NCBI GenBank assembly: GCA_018900835.1
Contig: JAHIFQ010000014.1
Location: forward strand, 1-62,875
DNA length: 62,875 nucleotides
Direction of reading: 5' to 3'
From: Patescibacteria group bacterium
Lineage (GTDB): Bacteria; Patescibacteriota; Minisyncoccia; Minisyncoccales; PEYH01
Shown piece by piece: positions 1,760 through 33,702 of this stretch (positions are counted from its first letter, which is position 1; every line of letters starts with the position of its first letter). The notes under the pieces are model-generated. The model did not search any database. It was not told the DNA's origin and was given only the letters and a program-made list of their open reading frames with translations. Made by a program: the position numbers and the translations under genes.

Positions 1760-2030
1760 ATAGATAAATATCGTAGGAGGTGACAGAATATGAGGTGGAT
1801 GAGGCAAGAGCCTCGCTATCTTGGCAAGGATTTGCGCGCCATATGGTGTTGGTCTTCCAAGATTGTCCTTTGTTTCCTGCTGTATATCCCCATTTTCGGG
1901 CAGATTGTTGTTCTCCCGCTCTTGCACAATGCGAGAGAATCGTGGAAATATCCACTCGGATAACGGCAATGCCGAATATCGGGGGCAAGATGGTGTGCGG
2001 TCGGTTCACAGAACCGGCCGCTTCTTTATT
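1760..2030 (+). promoter_or_regulatory. Structured, GC-elevated leader of leuS ending in an intrinsic terminator; possible T-box-type attenuator
   Basis: Stop-poor in several frames. Long hairpin ATCTTGG...CCAAGAT (1818-1863). UGGU lies just 5' of the terminator GCGGTCGGTTC-ACA-GAACCGGCCGC + TTCTTTATT (1997-2029), 36 nt before the leuS ATG. The canonical T-box 14-mer is not clearly present. Confidence 0.45.
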
Positions 2031-2065: not shown

Positions 2066-4468
2066 ATGGCAGAATATAGTCCAAAAGAATTTGAGAAAAA
2101 ATGGCAGACAAAATGGGAAGAGGAAAAGATATTTGAAGCCAAGGATTCTTCAAAAAAACCCAAATTTTTTGTTTTGGATATGTTCCCTTATCCTTCAGGA
2201 GATGGCCTTCATGTGGGTCATCCGCGGGGATATGTCGGAACTGATGTAATCGCCCACTATATGAGAATGAAGGGGCACAATGTCTTGCATCCAATGGGCT
2301 GGGATGCTTTTGGTTTGCCAGCAGAGAACTATGCGATAAAAACAGGTATTCATCCAGCGATTTCAACAGAGAAAAATATCAAAAGATTTAAAGAGCAAAT
2401 GAAGTCAATCGGACTTTCTTATGATTGGTCGCGGGAAATAAACACAACTGACCCGGATTATTATAAATGGACTCAATGGATATTTTTGAAGCTTTTTGAA
2501 ACAGGACTGGCTTATAGAAAAAAACTGCCTATTAATTGGTGTCCTTCCTGTAAAACAGGACTTGCTAACGAGGAGGTGGTGGCAGGGAAATGTGAGCGTT
2601 GCGGAGCAGAGGTAAGTAAAAAAGATATTGAACAATGGGTTTTGAAAATTACTGATTATGCGGAAGAATTGCTTAAAGATTTGGACAAGCTTGATTGGCC
2701 GGAAAAGATAAAAGAAATGCAAAGAAATTGGATAGGGAAATCTGTTGGCGCAGACATAGAATTCAAAATTCAAAATTCAAAATTTAAAATTCAAGTTTTT
2801 ACGACAAGGCCAGATACGATTTTTGGAGCAACATTTATGGTTTTAGCCCCAGAGCATAATTTAGTGGAGAAAATTACAACTCCAGACAAGAAAAAAGAAG
2901 TTGAAAAATATGTAGAAGAAAGCAAAAAGAAATTAGATATTGAGAGACAGACAGAAGACAGGGAAAAAACAGGTGTTTTTACAGGTGCTTATGCCCTCAA
3001 TCCTGCTACAAAAGAAAAAATTCCTATCTATAGTGCTGATTATGTTTTGCCAAGCTATGGATACGGGGCGATTATGGCAGTGCCGGCGCACGATGAAAGG
3101 GACTTTGCGTTTGCCAAAAAATACAATCTGCCTATTGAAGAGATAAAGCTGGATAAAACAGTTGAGCAAGCGACAAAATGGTTAGAAAAGAAAGGATGCG
3201 CTAATCCAGCGATAAATTACAAACTAAGGGATTGGATATTTTCAAGACAAAGATATTGGGGAGAGCCAATACCGCTTATTTTTTGCGAAAACTGTGCGGC
3301 TAAAGCCAAAAGCCAAAATCCAAAAGCCAAAAGTAAAGAATTTAGTAAAGGAGAATTATTGAATCCAGGGTGGGTTGCTTTATTGGAAGAGGATTTGCCT
3401 TTAGTCCTGCCAGAACTTGAAAAATATGAACCAACTGGCACAGGCGAATCCCCTTTGGCAAGCAAGTCAGATTGGGTTGAAACAACTTGCCCAAAATGTG
3501 GAGGCAGGGCTTTGCGCGAAACTAATACAATGCCTCAATGGGCTGGCTCTTGTTGGTACTTCCTCGCATATGTAATGCTCGGAGCACAAAATAAAAAAGC
3601 CAAAACCAAAAATCTAAATTCAAAATTCAAAATTCAAAATTCAAAATTGATTAAACATTGGCTGCCAGTTGACTTCTATATCGGCGGAGCAGAACATGCG
3701 GTTTTGCATCTTTTGTATTCAAGATTTTGGATTAAGGTTTTAAAAGATGAAAAAATTCTGCCATTTGACGAGCCATTTAAAAAATTAAGAACAATTGGTT
3801 TGATTTTAGCATCTGATGGACAGAAAATGTCTAAATCTAGAGGCAATGTTATCAATCCAGATGAAATTATTGAGAAATACGGAGCTGACGCTTTCCGCCT
3901 CTATGAAATGTTTATGGGTCCTTTTGACCAACCGATTGCTTGGGATACCAAAAGCATCATAGGCGCCAGAAGGTTTTTAGAGAAAGTATTCAATCTTTCT
4001 CAGAACCTTTTTAAAGAGACGGATTTGGGAACGAAGAAATTATTAAATAAAACAATTAAAAAGGTTGGCGAGGATATTGAGAGCCAGAAATTTAATACTG
4101 CCATTGCCTGCATGATGGAATTTATTAATTCCGTAGAGGAAATATTCTCGGGTGACTTCAGAGATTTTTTGAAGATCCTTGCTCCATTCGCGCCCCATTT
4201 AAGCGAAGAATTATATCAATCAGATAAGTCAATATTTCAAGAAAATTGGCCGAAATATGACTCGAAAATGATTGTTGAAAAAGAAGTGAGCATGATTATT
4301 CAGATTAATGGTAAGGTTCGTGGCACAATTGTTGTCTCTACAGGATTATCTGAAAAAGAAGCAGTCAATTTAGCCATTGAGTCCGATATTGCTAAAAAAT
4401 GGCTTGAGAATAAGAAAATCAAAAAAACAATCTTTATCAAAGACAAATTAATTAATTTTGTGGTATAG
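2066..4468 (+). CDS. leuS: Leucyl-tRNA synthetase
   Basis: 800 aa. HIGH-type motif HVGHPRGY, KMSKS motif KMSKSRGN, TTRPDT editing-domain entry. Confidence 0.97.
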   Translation: MAEYSPKEFEKKWQTKWEEEKIFEAKDSSKKPKFFVLDMFPYPSGDGLHVGHPRGYVGTDVIAHYMRMKGHNVLHPMGWDAFGLPAENYAIKTGIHPAISTEKNIKRFKEQMKSIGLSYDWSREINTTDPDYYKWTQWIFLKLFETGLAYRKKLPINWCPSCKTGLANEEVVAGKCERCGAEVSKKDIEQWVLKITDYAEELLKDLDKLDWPEKIKEMQRNWIGKSVGADIEFKIQNSKFKIQVFTTRPDTIFGATFMVLAPEHNLVEKITTPDKKKEVEKYVEESKKKLDIERQTEDREKTGVFTGAYALNPATKEKIPIYSADYVLPSYGYGAIMAVPAHDERDFAFAKKYNLPIEEIKLDKTVEQATKWLEKKGCANPAINYKLRDWIFSRQRYWGEPIPLIFCENCAAKAKSQNPKAKSKEFSKGELLNPGWVALLEEDLPLVLPELEKYEPTGTGESPLASKSDWVETTCPKCGGRALRETNTMPQWAGSCWYFLAYVMLGAQNKKAKTKNLNSKFKIQNSKLIKHWLPVDFYIGGAEHAVLHLLYSRFWIKVLKDEKILPFDEPFKKLRTIGLILASDGQKMSKSRGNVINPDEIIEKYGADAFRLYEMFMGPFDQPIAWDTKSIIGARRFLEKVFNLSQNLFKETDLGTKKLLNKTIKKVGEDIESQKFNTAIACMMEFINSVEEIFSGDFRDFLKILAPFAPHLSEELYQSDKSIFQENWPKYDSKMIVEKEVSMIIQINGKVRGTIVVSTGLSEKEAVNLAIESDIAKKWLENKKIKKTIFIKDKLINFVV
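2759..2796 (+). repeat. Heptanucleotide (aaaattc)n tract in frame inside leuS
   Basis: attcaaaattcaaaattcaaaatttaaaattcaag encodes FKIQNSKFKIQ just before TTRPDT. Confidence 0.85.
3299..3340 (+). repeat. Heptanucleotide (aaaagcc)n tract in frame inside leuS
   Basis: gctaaagccaaaagccaaaatccaaaagccaaaagtaaag encodes AKAKSQNPKAKSK. Confidence 0.85.
3588..3649 (+). repeat. Heptanucleotide (aaaaNNN)n tract in frame inside leuS
   Basis: aaaagccaaaaccaaaaatctaaattcaaaattcaaaattcaaaattcaaaattg encodes KKAKTKNLNSKFKIQNSKL. Confidence 0.85.
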
Positions 4469-17039: not shown

Positions 17040-17123
17040 TGCCGGAGGTGGGGGTCGAACCCACATGGGAGTAATCCCACAGAATTTTGAATTCTGCGCG
17101 TAAGCCAATTCCGCCACTCCGGC
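17040..17123 (-). tRNA. tRNA-Leu (anticodon CAA), class II with long variable arm, CCA not encoded
   Basis: Hand-folded cloverleaf: acceptor GCCGGAG/CTCCGGC, anticodon stem CAGAA/TTCTG with loop TTCAAAA, variable arm TGGGA-TTAC-TCCCA, T arm GTGGG-TTCGACC-CCCAC. Confidence 0.93.
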
Positions 17124-20142: not shown

Positions 20143-20673
20143 TTACAGGGCGGAGAATAAAGACAAAATTGATTCTTGTTTTATGTCTTTCAATTGTCCC
20201 AATTCTTGCTTTGTGAATTTTTGCAAAACAAATTTTTTTGTATCTATTTTGCCCTTTTTTTTATTCAAAATTCCTATTTTAAATTGTTTGAAATCTTTGG
20301 TTCCCAAACAAGAAATTATTGACTCAATTCCTTTGTGTCCGCCAGAGCCAGAGTCATTTTTGATTCTTATTTTCCCGAATTCCAAATCAATGTCATCATG
20401 CACAACCCAAAGTTCGCTGATTGGTATTTTGTAAAAAGCGGTTAGCAGTTTTAATGACTCGCCGGAATTATTCATAAATGTCTGGGGTTTTGCCAAAATC
20501 AATTTTTTGTCTCCATGTTCCCCGACACAAATTTTTGCTTTTAACCGCTTTTTATTTTCCCAAACAGAAAAATCACCATTTTTTCTTATTTGGTCCAGGA
20601 TTTCAAATCCAATATTATGACGGGTGTTTTTAAATTTTAGGCCCGGGTTTCCAAGCCCGATTATTAAAATCAT
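20143..20673 (-). CDS. pth: Peptidyl-tRNA hydrolase
   Basis: LIIGLGNPGLKFKNTRHNIGF and other Pth signatures. 176 aa. Confidence 0.93.
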   Translation of the reverse strand: MILIIGLGNPGLKFKNTRHNIGFEILDQIRKNGDFSVWENKKRLKAKICVGEHGDKKLILAKPQTFMNNSGESLKLLTAFYKIPISELWVVHDDIDLEFGKIRIKNDSGSGGHKGIESIISCLGTKDFKQFKIGILNKKKGKIDTKKFVLQKFTKQELGQLKDIKQESILSLFSAL

Positions 20674-20739
20674 TCTTTCATTATATACTCATTTCAAAAA
20701 AACAAGCAATTTAATTGTTAGGGTCCGCCCCCAACATTG

Positions 20740-20768
20740 TTGACCTTTGGCTAGTTTAGGCGTATAGT
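20740..20768 (+). promoter_or_regulatory. Strong sigma70-type promoter
   Basis: TTGACC-N17-TATAGT in the pth/lepB divergent gap. Confidence 0.5.
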
Positions 20769-20775
20769 AAAAATA

Positions 20776-21145
20776 CTATTCAGAAATCTCCTGTAGGAGG
20801 CAGGAGTACACAGCTCATTCAAGCACAACGAGAAATCCGCTTAAAGGTGAAGGGGGTATTGCATGGCACAGAAGGATTCGGAAGAATTAGTTTCAACAAG
20901 TGGCGATAACAGCGATATTGCGCCAGAGGAATTGGCATGGATACATGAATCACAAAGAATGGATACTCTTCGCGCATGCGTGTTGCGTGGCGAGATGCAT
21001 ATTTGTGAGGGGCCCCACCTTCGCATATCAAGTAGTCAAACCTCGGTAATCAAGCATAGGGTTAAGGAGTTTTTCTAACCATCGCAACCTTATGCTTCTT
21101 GATGCGGGGACTGCCATCCAGCCAGCCCCCGCTCTTCTTTTGTTG
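20776..21145 (+). ncRNA. Unclassified promoter-to-terminator unit of about 370 nt: candidate structured RNA, or mRNA for a 71-aa Cys/His peptide
   Basis: GC-elevated: 85 G+C of 180 nt by hand count over 20863-21042. Stop-poor on both strands. Many local helices, for example ATCAAGCATAGGGTT...AACCTTATGCTTCTTGAT. Ends in an intrinsic terminator. Confidence 0.4.
21104..21145 (+). terminator. Intrinsic terminator
   Basis: GCGGGG-N17-CCCCGC with inner CTG/CAG pairing, followed by TCTTCTTTTGTTG. Confidence 0.6.
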
Positions 21146-21203
21146 TCAAAACATTGCTTTTGGTCTACAATTATTAAATCATCACTAAATTGTAATTCGG
21201 ATT

Positions 21204-21737
21204 ATGAAAAAAATCATCTTTTTTATTTGGGAGATAGTCAAGATAAGCATTGTGGCCTTGATAATAGTTGTGCCTATCAGGGCATTTGTTTTTCAACCGT
21301 TTTTTGTAAGCGGCGCCAGCATGGAGCCAAATTTTCATGATTATGATTATCTTATAGTTGATGAAATTTCTTATCGTTTGGGCAGTCCTGGTCGGGGCGA
21401 TGTGATAGTTTTCTATAATCCGAATGACACGAGCAAGCGACTAATAAAAAGAGTAATTGGTTTATCAGGAGAGACGATAAAAATTGTTGACAACCAGATT
21501 TTTATAAAAAATGATGATGAAGAGTTTTATATCTTGGACGAATCAGAATATTTGTCTACTGATAGCAAAACCGCGGGCCATATTGAGACAATGCTTGGAG
21601 ATAATCAGTATTTTGTTTTAGGAGATAATCGCAATGTTTCTTTGGACTCAAGGTCATTTGGTCCAGTTAACAGGGACTTAATTATCGGAAGAAGCGCTTT
21701 TCGGTTATGGCCATTAAGTGTTTTTATGGACAAATAA
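21204..21737 (+). CDS. lepB: Signal peptidase I
   Basis: SGASMEPN, RGDVIVF, KRVIGLSGE, GDNRNVSLDSR boxes. Confidence 0.9.
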   Translation: MKKIIFFIWEIVKISIVALIIVVPIRAFVFQPFFVSGASMEPNFHDYDYLIVDEISYRLGSPGRGDVIVFYNPNDTSKRLIKRVIGLSGETIKIVDNQIFIKNDDEEFYILDESEYLSTDSKTAGHIETMLGDNQYFVLGDNRNVSLDSRSFGPVNRDLIIGRSAFRLWPLSVFMDK

Positions 21738-21741
21738 TAAC

Positions 21742-23034
21742 ATGACAGGCAAACAAGTGAGTAATAAAATTCAGGCGCCTCAAGGGATGTTTGATATCAC
21801 CCCAGAGAATCAGCCGTTTTACAAGAAGGTCTACGGAGTTGGAGAAAAAATTTCTTCATTTTATGGGTTTAAAGAAATTACTCCACCGATTTTAGAATCA
21901 ACCGAGCTGTTTGAAAGAGGGACAGGAGAAGCCACAGAAATAGTGGAGAAACAGATGTATTCGCTCAAGACCAAGGGCGGAGATTCTTTAACTCTAAGGC
22001 CAGAGTTTACTCCATCTATGGCAAGAGCATATGTTGAACATGGGATGATAAGCTTGCCACAGCCAGTCAAAATGTTTTCTTTTGGTCCGGTCTTTAGACA
22101 CGAAAAACCGCAAGCAGGCAGGTATCGCCAGTTTCACCAATTCAACATAGAGGCCTTCGGTTCCAAACGCCCGATAATGGATGTGGAGATTATCTATGTC
22201 TTTTATAACATCCTTCAAGCCCTTGGGATTAAAAAATTAATTATTGAGCTGAACAGCATTGGAGACAAGGAATGTATAGGCGAATACAAGAAACTTTTAG
22301 TAAGATATTTAAAGAAAAACGAACATTCTTTATGCGCAGATTGCAAAAGGCGGCTCAAGATGAACCCTTTAAGGATAATGGATTGCAAACAGGAAAGGTG
22401 TAAACATATAGTTCTCGGCGCTCCTCAAATTATTGACCATCTTTGTAAAGAATGCCATAATCATTTCAAAAAGGTTTTGGAATTTTTAGATGAGTTGGGT
22501 TTGCCATACAGCTTAAACCCTTGTTTAGTGAGGGGATTGGATTATTACACGAGAACCGTGTTTGAAATTATCGCGGAGGATGAACTTGGCAGACAACTTG
22601 GAAGTTTAGTCGGCGGTGGCAGATACGATAATCTTGTCAAGCTTTTTTCAAGAAAAAATATTCCTGCTTGCGGAGCTGCTGCTGGGGTTGAGAGGATTAT
22701 TACTATAATGAAGGAGCGTAATTTAGGTCCAGCTGAAATTCCGGGACCGCAAGTATTTTTAGCCCAGCTTGGAGATATTGCCAAAATTAGGTCGTTGAAA
22801 CTTATGGAGGACCTTCGGAAAGCAGGCATATCAGTAGCAGAGTTATTTGACAGAGAATCTTTGTCTGCCCAGCTTAGGGGCGCTGATAAATCAAAAGCAT
22901 TATATTCTTTGATTATCGGCGAAGAAGAAGCGAGCAGAGATATGATTATCATTAGGGATATGGCTGATGGCAGACAGACATCGGTTAAAATAGATAAGGT
23001 CGTCGGGGAATTGAAGAAAAAATTAAAACAGTAA
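21742..23034 (+). CDS. hisS: Histidyl-tRNA synthetase
   Basis: Start set at the ATG after the lepB stop. FRHEKPQAGRYRQFHQ class II motif and GGGRYD. Confidence 0.95.
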   Translation: MTGKQVSNKIQAPQGMFDITPENQPFYKKVYGVGEKISSFYGFKEITPPILESTELFERGTGEATEIVEKQMYSLKTKGGDSLTLRPEFTPSMARAYVEHGMISLPQPVKMFSFGPVFRHEKPQAGRYRQFHQFNIEAFGSKRPIMDVEIIYVFYNILQALGIKKLIIELNSIGDKECIGEYKKLLVRYLKKNEHSLCADCKRRLKMNPLRIMDCKQERCKHIVLGAPQIIDHLCKECHNHFKKVLEFLDELGLPYSLNPCLVRGLDYYTRTVFEIIAEDELGRQLGSLVGGGRYDNLVKLFSRKNIPACGAAAGVERIITIMKERNLGPAEIPGPQVFLAQLGDIAKIRSLKLMEDLRKAGISVAELFDRESLSAQLRGADKSKALYSLIIGEEEASRDMIIIRDMADGRQTSVKIDKVVGELKKKLKQ

Positions 23035-32631: not shown

Positions 32632-33702
32632 ATGAAACTTGCTTCAGTTATTATTCTAATAGCAGTTCTGGTGATGGCTATATTTTTGGTTAATCTTTAC
32701 AGCCAGTCAGAGGATATCACAAAATTATCAAAGGATTTTTTATTGACCAATTTAAGCTTAAAACAGAAAGTTGGTCAGCTTTTTATCATTGGTTTTGAAG
32801 GGAAAGAGCTTACTCAAGATATAAAGTTGATGATAAGGGAACTTCACCCCGGAGGAATCTTGCTTCTTGGCTGGAACATAGAAGACAGGCTACAGTTATT
32901 GAAATTAGTGGATGGGCTTCAACAGATAGCTCTGCAAGATACTGGCATACCATTATTCATAGCTGTTGACCAAGAAGGGGGTGAAATCAATAGGATTGAT
33001 TTTATTCAGGAACAGACCAGCCAAAGCGCGATTGAGAATCCGGAAAATGCTTTTAAAATTGGCTTTAGCAGGGCACAGGAATTGCGGGCGTCCGGTATTT
33101 CTCTTAATCTTGCGCCTCTTTTGGACCAGACAAAGCAAGGCGATTTTATTTATGGCCGTTCGTTCAAAGAAAGCCAGCAGGATGTCGGTGATTTAGTAAA
33201 GAACTTGATTTTAGGTCAGAAAAACACTGAAATTTTTACAGCAATCAAACATTTTCCTGGTTATGGAAATATTGATTTTAATCCAGAGGAAAAATTGGCA
33301 GTCAAAGAAGAAGTTCCTGACACAGGATTATTCAAAGAGGCAATGTCTGCCAAGCCAGAAATGGTGATGACTGCTAATGTTGTTTATAAAAGCATAGATG
33401 AATATATGCCTTTTTCGTTTTCCAAAAAAGGAATAGATTTTTTGAAATCAGAACTAGGAAATGAAATTTTAATAATTTCTGATGATTTGGACCAAAATTC
33501 TTTATTGAATAAATATGAATTAGAAGATATTGTTTCTTTGCCAGTAGAAGCAGGTGTTGATATTCTGATTTTCTCGGGTTGGCGTTTGCCAGCAAGTGAT
33601 GGAATAGAAGCGCTTATCAAGGCAGTTGAAAATGGTAGAATAAGCGAAGAAAGGATAAATCAATCAGCGTCAAAAATTATTAAGTTAAAATTAGGGATTT
33701 AA
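32632..33702 (+). CDS. nagZ: Beta-N-acetylhexosaminidase, GH3 (NagZ-like), membrane-anchored
   Basis: KVGQLFIIGF, VDQEGG, KHFPGYGN. Confidence 0.8.
   Translation: MKLASVIILIAVLVMAIFLVNLYSQSEDITKLSKDFLLTNLSLKQKVGQLFIIGFEGKELTQDIKLMIRELHPGGILLLGWNIEDRLQLLKLVDGLQQIALQDTGIPLFIAVDQEGGEINRIDFIQEQTSQSAIENPENAFKIGFSRAQELRASGISLNLAPLLDQTKQGDFIYGRSFKESQQDVGDLVKNLILGQKNTEIFTAIKHFPGYGNIDFNPEEKLAVKEEVPDTGLFKEAMSAKPEMVMTANVVYKSIDEYMPFSFSKKGIDFLKSELGNEILIISDDLDQNSLLNKYELEDIVSLPVEAGVDILIFSGWRLPASDGIEALIKAVENGRISEERINQSASKIIKLKLGI

What the first reader, a model, noticed from the sequence alone, without database searches (positions are those of the whole stretch)
20740..21145. Unclassified ~370-nt GC-elevated unit bounded by a promoter and a terminator, between pth and lepB
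The 530-nt divergent gap contains a near-consensus promoter (TTGACC-N17-TATAGT) and, about 370 nt later, an intrinsic terminator. The interior is about 47 percent G+C by hand count in an AT-rich genome and is stop-poor on both strands. It is full of local helices, the usual signature of a structured RNA. I could not find the universal RNase P (GAGGAAAGUCC), tmRNA (5' GGGG, T-loop) or SRP helix-8 motifs. Alternatively it may encode a 71-aa peptide (20863-21078, SD AAGGGGG) with a C-x7-H-x-C-x3-H cluster. Either way it is an independent unit of unknown class.
Basis: seen in the sequence. Interest (0 to 1): 0.65.

Follow-up and report, generated by a model that had tools for sequence, protein, structure and literature searches.

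The report
Small orphan protein gene, not ncRNA
The unit between pth and lepB is a self-contained gene for a small (71-aa), fast-evolving protein found only in one narrow clade of Patescibacteria; it has a long leader with a hairpin and is not a structured non-coding RNA of any known class.

Summary
The promoter (20740-20768), the terminator (21104-21145) and the raised G+C content are real. The "structured RNA" reading is not supported. Rfam gives no match in the window or in six related loci, ARAGORN finds nothing, and the 371-nt transcript folds no better than shuffled versions (z = -1.0).

Five other lineages carry the same layout at the same site: TTGAC(C/T)-N17 promoter, 85-100 nt leader, A(A)GGGGG Shine-Dalgarno, ATG or GTG start, 68-78 codons, then a terminator that abuts the lepB -35. 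Only that frame is open in all six complete copies; the chance of this is about 2e-7.

The unit was inserted once into an ancestral 40-130 nt pth/lepB gap. It was later lost in one sub-clade and has decayed to 22 codons in another. The protein has no homologue in 5.8 billion proteins, Pfam, NCBIfam, PHROGs, PADLOC or PDB. The Cys/His cluster is not conserved.

The coding part diverges faster than synonymous sites in the neighbouring genes, while the promoter and leader are better kept. Each lineage keeps a 5' hairpin with an SD-like GGAGG or GGGGG. Function is unknown. This is an ordinary orphan small gene with some unusual evolutionary features.

The parts
20740..20768 (+). Sigma-70-type promoter TTGACC-N17-TATAGT. 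The inferred transcription start is about 20775.
   Evidence: One search gives 10 of 12 matches. TTGAC(C/T)-N17 followed by a -10 element is present at the same place in L001, L093, L095, L097, L098 and L099. The start site is inferred, not mapped.
20775..20862 (+). 5' untranslated leader of about 88 nt
   Evidence: Leaders are 85-103 nt in all seven lineages. This is exceptional in a genome where only 4 of 41 genes have an SD-like motif and many look leaderless. In the six-lineage alignment the leader gives RNAalifold z = -5.0 against column shuffles.
20788..20806 (+). 5'-proximal hairpin CUCCUGU-AGGAG-GCAGGAG that displays an SD-like AGGAGG (20795-20800)
   Evidence: dG -10.1, z -2.9. A hairpin with a pyrimidine-rich 5' arm and GGAGG or GGGGG in the loop or 3' arm sits at the same place in every lineage, with different stem sequences: UAUUUCUU/GAGAGAUA, AUAUCUCUU/GAGAGAUAU, CCAUAUUUU/GAGAUAUGG and UAUACCU/GGGUGUG. 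No conserved start codon follows it.
20812..20820 (+). Conserved box AGCUCAUUC (AGCUCUUU in group B). It is CU-rich and predicted to pair with the Shine-Dalgarno sequence in group B.
   Evidence: The columns are invariant in alignment A6. The RNAalifold consensus pairs it with AAGGGG. In the window itself the predicted partner of the SD is instead UCCGCUU at 20836-20842, with pairing probability 0.80.
20850..20856 (+). Shine-Dalgarno AAGGGGG, 6 nt before the ATG
   Evidence: A(A)GGGGG lies 4-6 nt before ATG or GTG in all seven lineages and in the L084 remnant.
20863..21078 (+). CDS for a 71-aa hydrophilic, mildly acidic protein (pI 5.4) with no signal peptide or transmembrane segment
   Evidence: This is the only frame open in all six complete copies. 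Indels against L001 are multiples of 3, with the same stop and a VKEFF* end. Gene callers already call it. Codon usage is the best of the six frames but poorer than any piece of the genome's own genes.
20966..21012 (+). Strong local hairpin inside the CDS, over codons 35-50
   Evidence: dG -21.1, z -3.95, matched by 0 of 200 shuffles. It is kept in L001 through wobble-compatible and compensatory changes. It is not conserved in group B. Its meaning is unexplained.
21104..21145 (+). Intrinsic terminator. The stem is at 21104-21132 and the U-rich tail overlaps the lepB -35 (TTGTCA, 21143-21148).
   Evidence: Every lineage has a G+C-rich hairpin of different sequence followed by the same T-run. 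The T-run and the lepB promoter are also present in relatives that lack the unit.

Best explanation
This is a monocistronic gene for a small, clade-specific protein.

How it most likely works:
- A strong sigma-70-type promoter starts an mRNA of about 370 nt.
- The leader of about 88 nt carries a 5'-proximal hairpin that displays an SD-like GGAGG, plus CU-rich tracts that can pair with the true Shine-Dalgarno sequence. Together these probably set mRNA stability and translation rate (inferred).
- Ribosomes start at AAGGGGG-N6-ATG and make a 71-aa soluble, mildly acidic, probably helical cytoplasmic protein.
- An intrinsic terminator ends the transcript just before the independent lepB promoter.

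The unit arose or was inserted once in the ancestor of a narrow Patescibacteria clade, in what was otherwise a compact divergent pth/lepB promoter region. It is dispensable: it has been lost or has decayed in some descendants. Its coding part evolves very fast.

What is shown: the anatomy, the maintenance of the ORF, the phyletic pattern and the rate contrast. What is inferred: transcription, translation, the role of the leader and the protein's activity, which remains unknown.
For: 1. The promoter, SD, ORF and terminator are in the sequence.

2. Six complete copies and one partial copy sit at the same site and in the same orientation, with the same layout.

3. Only frame +0 is open in all six complete copies. 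The chance of staying open is 0.009-0.086 per copy, or about 2e-7 across four independent lineages.

4. Indels between the window and L001 are in-frame, the start changes from ATG to GTG at the same position, and the stop is the same.

5. Protein-level similarity is significant within group B, at z 4-11 in most of the informative pairs (a few pairs within group B are not significant), although their DNA is only 40-46% alike. It is also significant within group A, at z 32.

6. The nonsynonymous rate is below the gene's own synonymous rate. The ratio dN/dS is 0.37 for window against L001 and 0.32 for L093 against L097.

7. There is no RNA family match, and the window's transcript fold is not significant.

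8. Independent gene callers already call the ORF, and the group B orthologue is 'hypothetical protein' at NCBI.

9. A Pth+LepB tree places all carriers in one clade, with the remnant and the two loci that lack the unit nested inside it. The ancestral gap is 40-130 nt in outgroups.
Against: - There is no expression data of any kind; no RNA runs hold the sequence.
- Codon periodicity is weak: 22/25/35 differences by codon position.
- Measured against synonymous divergence of the flanking genes, the amino-acid-changing rate is about neutral or higher. For window against L001, dN is 0.44 and flank dS is about 0.45. For L095 against L097, dN is 0.83 and flank dS is about 0.52.
- Codon usage is worse than in any piece of the genome's own genes.
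- The window's protein (group A) cannot be shown by sequence to be homologous to group B proteins: z <= 2, and hhalign probability 3.5%. A covariance model of the group B leader does not find the window's leader.
- Several relatives' transcripts fold significantly better than shuffles (z -2.9 to -4.2), and the window/L001 pair shares a CDS hairpin. Some RNA-level constraint is therefore possible.
- AlphaFold models are of low confidence (pLDDT 54 and 68).
Confidence: 0.78

Rival explanations
1. The unit is a non-coding structured RNA, either an sRNA or a larger ribonucleoprotein RNA. On this reading the open frame is incidental and the conserved 5' part (hairpin plus GGAGG and CU-rich tracts) is the functional core.
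For: The leader is the best-conserved part. It is 86% identical between L095 and L097, against 58-67% at fourfold sites and 43% in the CDS. RNAalifold gives the leader z -5. Transcripts of L001, L095, L097 and L099 fold at z -2.9 to -4.2. The CDS hairpin at 20966-21012 has z -3.95 and is kept in L001. G+C is raised in all lineages.
Against: An open frame of 68-78 codons directly after a conserved SD and start codon in six of six copies has a chance of about 2e-7. Indels are in-frame. Protein similarity exceeds DNA similarity in group B. No structure is shared by all lineages in the CDS (z +0.2). The window's own transcript folds at z -1.0. Rfam gives no match.
Confidence: 0.07
2. The unit is a cis-acting leader for lepB. 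On this reading, translation of the small ORF matters rather than its product: it modulates read-through of the terminator into lepB, as in leader-peptide attenuation or the arrest-peptide secretion monitors SecM, MifM and VemP.
For: The unit is always immediately upstream of lepB and in the same orientation. The terminator abuts the lepB promoter. The amino-acid sequence is poorly constrained while ORF length and signals are kept. A C-terminal (I/V)x(E/R)(F/V)F* motif is kept in the window, L001, L093 and even in the 22-codon L084 remnant.
Against: lepB has its own TTGTCA-N17-TACAAT promoter, conserved in relatives that lack the unit entirely, so lepB does not depend on it. There are 125 nt and a full promoter between the stop codon and lepB. 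The protein has no N-terminal signal or membrane segment such as the known secretion monitors have. Seventy codons is long for an attenuation leader. The unit has been lost without loss of lepB.
Confidence: 0.08
3. The unit is a decaying or non-functional insert: foreign or de novo DNA whose ORF is drifting neutrally.
For: Divergence of the CDS is at or above the neutral rate. Codon usage is atypical and G+C is raised. The unit is lost in one sub-clade and truncated to 22 codons in another. There is no homologue anywhere.
Against: Neutral drift to about 40% DNA identity would not leave the frame open, or the SD, start codon and terminator in place, in six lineages. The promoter and leader are conserved above the synonymous benchmark in L095/L097.
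Confidence: 0.05

Closest known systems
Lineage-restricted ('orphan') small protein genes of bacteria, annotated as hypothetical proteins
   Same: Monocistronic, about 70 codons, own promoter, SD and terminator, with no detectable homologues outside a narrow clade. Evolution is fast, codon usage is atypical, and relatives gain or lose the gene.
   Different: The expression signals (promoter, long leader, strong SD) are unusually elaborate for a genome in which about 90% of genes lack an SD. These signals are better conserved than the coding sequence.
STAB-SD / 5' stabiliser elements of Gram-positive mRNAs (Agaisse & Lereclus 1996, Mol Microbiol 20:633, as listed in the references of PMC7509114; the role of RNase J1 is described in the abstract of PMC5737220)
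   Same: An SD-like sequence (AGGAGG, GGAGG or GGGGG) lies near the 5' end of a long leader, far from any start codon and next to or within a 5' hairpin. It is kept in all seven lineages.
   Different: The resemblance rests on sequence only. There is no stability measurement, and whether this organism has a 5'-exonuclease of the RNase J type was not checked. In several lineages the SD-like bases are partly inside the stem rather than free.
SD-sequestering leaders (RNA thermometers of the fourU/ROSE type, translational operators)
   Same: CU-rich tracts in the leader are predicted to pair with the G-rich SD. Pairing probability is 0.66-0.80 in the window, L093, L095 and L097, and the RNAalifold consensus contains a box:SD helix.
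   Different: Pairing is not elevated in L001, L098 or L099, where it is 0.25-0.43. Against shuffled leaders the excess is marginal (4-9% of shuffles reach it). There is no match to the Rfam thermometer families.
Arrest-peptide secretion monitors (SecM, MifM, VemP) upstream of secretion genes
   Same: A small, fast-evolving ORF lies directly upstream of a gene of the secretion pathway (lepB), with a partly conserved C-terminus.
   Different: There is no signal or membrane segment. A terminator and an independent promoter separate the ORF from lepB. lepB has no SD to be unmasked. The comparison with these systems rests on my own knowledge of them.

Membership tests
Known structured RNA families (RNase P, tmRNA, SRP, 6S and all of Rfam 15) | Match to the family covariance model at or near its gathering score | tested here: not met
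   The only gathering-level hit in the window is a tRNA at 17040-17123. In 20600-21300 the best hits have E>=3.8 and lie far below gathering. Six related loci give nothing at E<=1. ARAGORN finds no tmRNA.
Structured non-coding RNA (generic) | Folding energy below shuffles, and a structure conserved with covariation along the molecule | tested here: inconclusive
   The window's transcript gives z -1.0, while L001, L095, L097 and L099 give z -2.9 to -4.2. A conserved structure is found in the leader (z -5.0) but not in the CDS across all lineages (z +0.2). The window/L001 pair alone gives CDS z -4.0.
Protein-coding gene | The same reading frame is kept open in diverged relatives, with in-frame indels | tested here: met
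   frame +0 is open in six of six copies, and the other five frames have stops in most copies. The chance is about 2e-7.
Protein-coding gene | Ribosome-binding site and start codon conserved at the head of the frame | tested here: met
   A(A)GGGGG lies 4-6 nt before ATG or GTG in all seven lineages.
Protein-coding gene | Purifying selection and codon-periodic substitution | tested here: inconclusive
   dN/dS is 0.32-0.37 using the gene's own dS. However, dN is about equal to or above the dS of the flanking genes, and position-wise differences of 22/25/35 are only mildly periodic.
Protein-coding gene | Evidence of translation (peptides or ribosome footprints) | not testable with these tools
   No RNA runs are available, and there is no proteomics tool.
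Intrinsic (Rho-independent) terminator | G+C-rich hairpin immediately followed by a U-run | tested here: met
   Stem at 21104-21132, tail UCUUCUUUUGUU, dG -18.4. The equivalent hairpin plus T-run is present in all lineages.
Zinc- or metal-binding Cys/His motif (C-x7-H-x-C-x3-H) | Ligand residues conserved in homologues | tested here: not met
   L001 lacks the fourth ligand, and group B lacks the Cys positions; L095 has no Cys at all.
Leader-peptide attenuator or arrest-peptide monitor of lepB | The downstream gene depends on read-through or unmasking and has no promoter of its own; for monitors, an N-terminal export signal | tested here: not met
   The lepB promoter TTGTCA-N17-TACAAT is conserved with and without the unit. 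The protein has no hydrophobic segment longer than 5 residues.
STAB-SD-type 5' stabiliser | SD-like sequence in the leader that is not used for initiation | tested here: met
   AGGAGG at 20795-20800 has no start codon 4-10 nt downstream. The equivalent element is present in all lineages, and no conserved upstream ORF exists.
STAB-SD-type 5' stabiliser | The element raises mRNA half-life through 30S binding | not testable with these tools
   This needs mRNA decay measurements with a mutated element.
Diversity-generating retroelement target | Template repeat and reverse transcriptase nearby, with adenine-specific changes | tested here: not met
   There is no second copy of any part of the unit in the 62.9-kb window. 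Differences are spread over all bases and positions.

The most novel reading that the evidence does not exclude
The pth/lepB gap of this Patescibacteria clade may hold a conserved 'expression slot': a strong promoter, a structured leader with a decoy SD, a rare true SD and a terminator. The roughly 70-codon payload in that slot diverges about twice as fast as neighbouring synonymous sites, and between the two sub-groups it is no longer recognisably homologous. That pattern would point to diversifying selection or allele replacement on a small cytoplasmic protein, for example in conflict with a host or a phage. Alternatively, the leader RNA may be the real functional element.
Probability: 0.2. 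Interest if true: 0.55.

Novelty: new member of a known kind. Interest (0 to 1): 0.3.

Why it matters
The result settles the RNA-or-peptide question for this locus. The unit should not be listed as a candidate new class of structured RNA.

What remains is a well-delimited example of a clade-specific small gene in an ultra-small-genome bacterium. It has a clean history of one gain, later loss and later decay. Its regulatory signals are better conserved than its coding sequence.

It is also one of the few SD-led, long-leader genes in a genome that otherwise seems to use leaderless or SD-less initiation. That makes it a handy test case for how translation initiation and mRNA stability work in Patescibacteria. 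In itself it is of modest interest.

Tried and rejected
- Rfam at the gathering threshold and at E<=10 on the window, and at E<=1 on six related loci, gave nothing. ARAGORN gave nothing.
- Protein searches with the 71-aa sequence found only the sequence itself. These were a word-indexed search of 5.8 billion proteins and an exhaustive phmmer of 1.84 billion representatives. The one extra hit, P0002, is a mistranslated tandem repeat.
- A search with a four-sequence profile found only the group B cluster P0123.
- Pfam, NCBIfam, PHROGs, PADLOC and a PDB profile search gave no meaningful match.
- A weak tblastn hit in L018 lies inside dprA and was rejected.
- AlphaFold2 on single sequences gave pLDDT 54 and 68. 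This is too low for a fold search, so none was run.
- No RNA-seq runs were found. DNA contigs of other groundwater runs gave only two variable sites in the unit, too few for population-level pN/pS.
- RNAalifold on the MAFFT alignment of the seven leaders alone found no pairs, because the hairpins are not aligned by sequence. A column-shuffle test on separately aligned parts was used instead.
- A covariance model of the group B leader found L098 (E 0.14) but not the window, L001 or L099. RNA-level homology between groups A and B is therefore not shown.
- The antisense ORFs (20819-21031 and 20841-21026) were rejected because those frames carry stops in relatives.
- A DGR template or any other repeat of the unit elsewhere in the window was not found.

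Full report
**Where the window comes from.** The window matches contig JAHIJA010000007.1 of assembly GCA_018898995.1, from a groundwater Patescibacteria lineage. The finding lies in the 530-nt gap (20674-21203) between peptidyl-tRNA hydrolase (pth, 20143-20673, minus strand) and signal peptidase I (lepB, 21204-21737, plus strand). Both identifications are confirmed by Pfam.

**Check of the observation.**
- The promoter TTGACC-N17-TATAGT is at 20740-20768 and matches 10 of 12 consensus positions.
- The terminator is real. GCGGGGaCUG pairs with CAGcCCCCGC at 21104-21132, followed by UCUUCUUUUGUU (dG -18.4 kcal/mol, z -2.0). The automatic scan missed it because its loop is longer than the scan allows.
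- G+C is 0.46-0.475 against 0.38 for the window. However, 7% of gene-sized pieces of this genome's own genes are as G+C-rich.
- The claim that the unit is 'full of local helices' does not pass a shuffle test. The 371-nt unit folds at -109.9 kcal/mol against -104.2 +/- 5.6 for dinucleotide shuffles, z -1.0. The other strand gives z -1.3.
- Rfam 15 gives no match at gathering, or at E<=10 with any plausible family, and ARAGORN finds no tmRNA.

**Relatives.** I searched for pth homologues in species-representative genomes and in the large protein collection, then fetched their contigs. This gave the same divergent pth/lepB arrangement in 34 loci.
- In the outgroups the gap is only 40-130 nt.
- A gap of about 500 nt holding a unit like the one in the window occurs in one clade only. 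Group A is the window and L001 (identical to L083). Group B is L093, L095 (identical to L096), L097, L099 and the partial L098.
- Within the same clade, L087/L088, L091 and L092 have a gap of 110-115 nt that holds only the two gene promoters. L084-L086 have a 321-nt gap with a remnant: an SD, a 22-codon ORF ending IERFF*, and a degenerate terminator.
- A neighbour-joining tree of Pth+LepB puts all carriers in one clade, with the two absent loci that were included in the tree (L087, L092) and the remnant nested inside it. The simplest history is one gain followed by loss and decay.

**Coding or not.** Every complete copy has TTGAC(C/T)-N17 and a -10 element, a leader of 85-103 nt, A(A)GGGGG 4-6 nt before ATG or GTG, and 68-78 codons. 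A G+C-rich hairpin then runs into the T-run that precedes the lepB -35.
- Between the window and L001 the DNA is 69% identical across the unit. The two indels in the ORF are 3 nt each, ATG becomes GTG at the same position, and both proteins end VKEFF*.
- Across the six complete copies only frame +0 is free of internal stops; the other five frames have stops in most copies. From dinucleotide shuffles, the chance that the frame after the start stays open is 0.009-0.086 per copy. That is about 2e-7 for the four independent lineages.
- In group B most of the informative protein pairs are significantly similar (z 4-11; blastp E 1e-5 to 3e-7 for the three pairs among L093, L095 and L097) although their DNA is only 40-46% identical.
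- The ratio dN/dS from the gene's own sites is 0.37 (window/L001) and 0.32 (L093/L097).
- Gene callers already call the ORF in the window's genome and in group B, where NCBI names it 'hypothetical protein'.

**The protein.**
- It has no homologue beyond these loci in 5.8 billion clustered proteins, nor in an exhaustive HMMER scan of 1.84 billion representatives. The one extra hit is a mistranslated repeat.
- It has no Pfam, NCBIfam, PHROGs, PADLOC or PDB match.
- It is hydrophilic and mildly acidic (pI 4.9-6.0), with no hydrophobic run longer than 5 residues, so it is neither secreted nor membrane-bound.
- Single-sequence AlphaFold2 models are helical but of low confidence (pLDDT 54 and 68), so no fold search was made.
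What recurs is an N-terminal M-C-x-E-E...L-V in group B, a (R/G)(G/D)(D/E)(L/M)H(I/L) motif, and in part a C-terminal (I/V)x(E/R)(F/V)F.
- Group A and group B proteins cannot be shown to be homologous by sequence (z <= 2; hhalign E 0.012, probability 3.5%). Their equivalence rests on position, orientation and shared architecture.

**Rates of change.** L095 and L097 are about 85% identical in pth, lepB and hisS, and 58-67% identical at fourfold-degenerate sites. Their leaders are 86% identical. From the start codon to the terminator stem, identity drops to 35-50%: 43% for DNA and 28% for protein.
- For the window against L001, the fourfold sites of the flanking genes are 62-70% identical, the leader 69% and the CDS 59-61%. 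The gene's dN (0.44) equals the flanking genes' dS (about 0.45, by my Jukes-Cantor conversion).
- The coding part therefore changes at or above the local neutral rate while staying an open frame. This fits weak constraint plus diversifying selection, or replacement by diverged alleles. I cannot tell these apart.
- Caveats apply. Alignments are unreliable at this divergence, and fourfold sites in an AT-rich genome may be compositionally constrained.
- Codon usage in frame +0 is the best of the six frames, but poorer than any 71-codon piece of the genome's long genes.

**The leader.** This genome hardly uses Shine-Dalgarno sequences: 4 of 41 gene starts have one. Many genes, pth included, have a -10 box 6 nt before the ATG and look leaderless (sequence). 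Against that background the unit stands out, with an 88-nt leader and two SD-like elements.
- The first element, AGGAGG at 20795-20800, sits in the loop and 3' arm of a hairpin at 20788-20806 (dG -10.1, z -2.9).
- Each lineage has a hairpin at the same place with a pyrimidine-rich 5' arm and GGAGG or GGGGG, but with different stem sequences. In L001 one pair is broken.
- No conserved start codon follows the hairpin.
- RNAalifold on the leaders gives z -5.4 for group B and z -5.0 for all six. It finds two helices: this hairpin, and a pairing between the conserved box AGCUC(A/U)UU and the true SD.
- The predicted probability that the SD is paired is 0.66-0.80 in the window, L093, L095 and L097, but only 0.25-0.43 in L001, L098 and L099. 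The excess over shuffled leaders is marginal. SD sequestration is therefore suggested, not shown.
- By analogy with STAB-SD elements and 5' hairpins of Gram-positive mRNAs, I infer that the leader sets mRNA stability and translation rate. The references are Agaisse & Lereclus 1996, listed in PMC7509114, and PMC5737220. This is inference only.
- A covariance model built from the group B leader finds L098 (E 0.14) but not the window's leader.

**RNA structure elsewhere in the unit.** The window's own transcript and CDS are unremarkable (z -1.0 and -0.6). The transcripts of L001, L095, L097 and L099 fold better than shuffles (z -2.9 to -4.2).
- The window and L001 share a strong CDS hairpin at 20966-21012 (dG -21.1, z -3.95). 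It is kept through wobble-compatible and a few compensatory changes.
- Group B shows no conserved CDS structure (z -1.0 to -1.6), and all six together show none (z +0.2).
- I record this as unexplained. It leaves some room for an RNA-level role but does not outweigh the coding evidence.

**Rival readings.**
- A pure non-coding RNA is unlikely, for the reasons above.
- A cis-acting leader for lepB (attenuation or arrest-peptide monitor) is unlikely. lepB keeps its own TTGTCA-N17-TACAAT promoter in genomes with and without the unit. The protein has no export signal. The unit can also be lost without losing lepB.
- A neutral, dying insert does not explain six open frames with intact signals.
- There is no repeat of the unit in the window, so no DGR-like template.

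**Verdict.** The unit is real and independent. It is best read as an ordinary, already gene-called, orphan small-protein gene with a structured leader. It is not a new class of RNA. Its unusual points are the elaborate and comparatively conserved expression signals in a nearly SD-less genome, the very fast-changing coding part, and the clean gain, loss and decay history. No expression data exist, and the protein's activity is unknown.

Noticed in passing
window 20674-20714 (minus strand): pth looks leaderless. On the minus strand the sequence reads TTGCTT-N18-TATAAT-GAAAGA-ATG, with the -10 box only 6 nt from the start codon. The block TCTTTCATTATATA is conserved in all relatives. The same -10 + 6 nt + ATG layout is seen at 32632.
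   Followed up: partly
window, all gene starts: Only 4 of 41 gene starts have an SD-like motif within 18 nt upstream. The genome appears to rely mostly on leaderless or SD-independent initiation. The exceptions are 20863, 50546 (AAAAGGAGGAAAG), 11095 and 54482; a separate scan for SD-led ORFs also suggests 15391 on the minus strand.
   Followed up: partly
window 20717-20735; L001 2760-2830 (reverse strand): A small hairpin, GTTAGGGTCCGCCCCCAAC, lies between the two divergent promoters. L001 carries two tandem copies of AATTGTTA(A/G)GGTGCGACCCTAACTG plus a further hairpin ACGAGGCCCGGCCTCGT at the same spot. This may be a small repeat element.
   Followed up: no
window 20966-21012: A strong hairpin lies inside the small CDS (dG -21.1, z -3.95). 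It is kept in L001 through wobble and compensatory changes but is not conserved in the more distant copies. It pairs a CU-rich arm with GAGGGG.
   Followed up: partly
window 1790-1963 (+): A 57-codon ORF with a perfect SD (AGGAGGTGA-N6-ATG) sits in the gap of about 400 nt upstream of the 800-aa ORF 2066-4468, which looks like leucyl-tRNA synthetase. It could be another SD-led small gene or a leader region. Rfam found no T-box.
   Followed up: no
L089 557-1834: In one relative (pth 79% identical) a 425-aa gene with a weak integrase-core (rve) match sits next to pth in place of lepB. The pth-upstream gap is therefore a site of rearrangement or insertion.
   Followed up: no
L098 1884-2948: The topoisomerase I gene of this relative carries an intein (Intein_splicing and LAGLIDADG_3 domains).
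   Followed up: no
L031 2700-2990 (reverse strand): A more distant relative (pth 49% identical) has a different short unit diverging from pth: TTGACA-N17-TACAAT, then a leader in which GUUCUUU can pair with AAGAAGGAGG. An 8-codon ORF (MQRYKHPP*) and a terminator follow about 120 nt later. The group B leader model hits it weakly (E 0.28).
   Followed up: partly
window 21718-21742: The mechanical hisS ORF starts at GTG 21718 and overlaps the end of lepB. The gene call in the source record starts at 21742 (430 aa), which seems the likelier start.
   Followed up: no
window 20876 and 20898: A contig from another groundwater run differs from the window at 20876 (A>G, Asp5Gly) and at 20898 (A>G, synonymous). 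This is the only population variation seen in the unit.
   Followed up: partly
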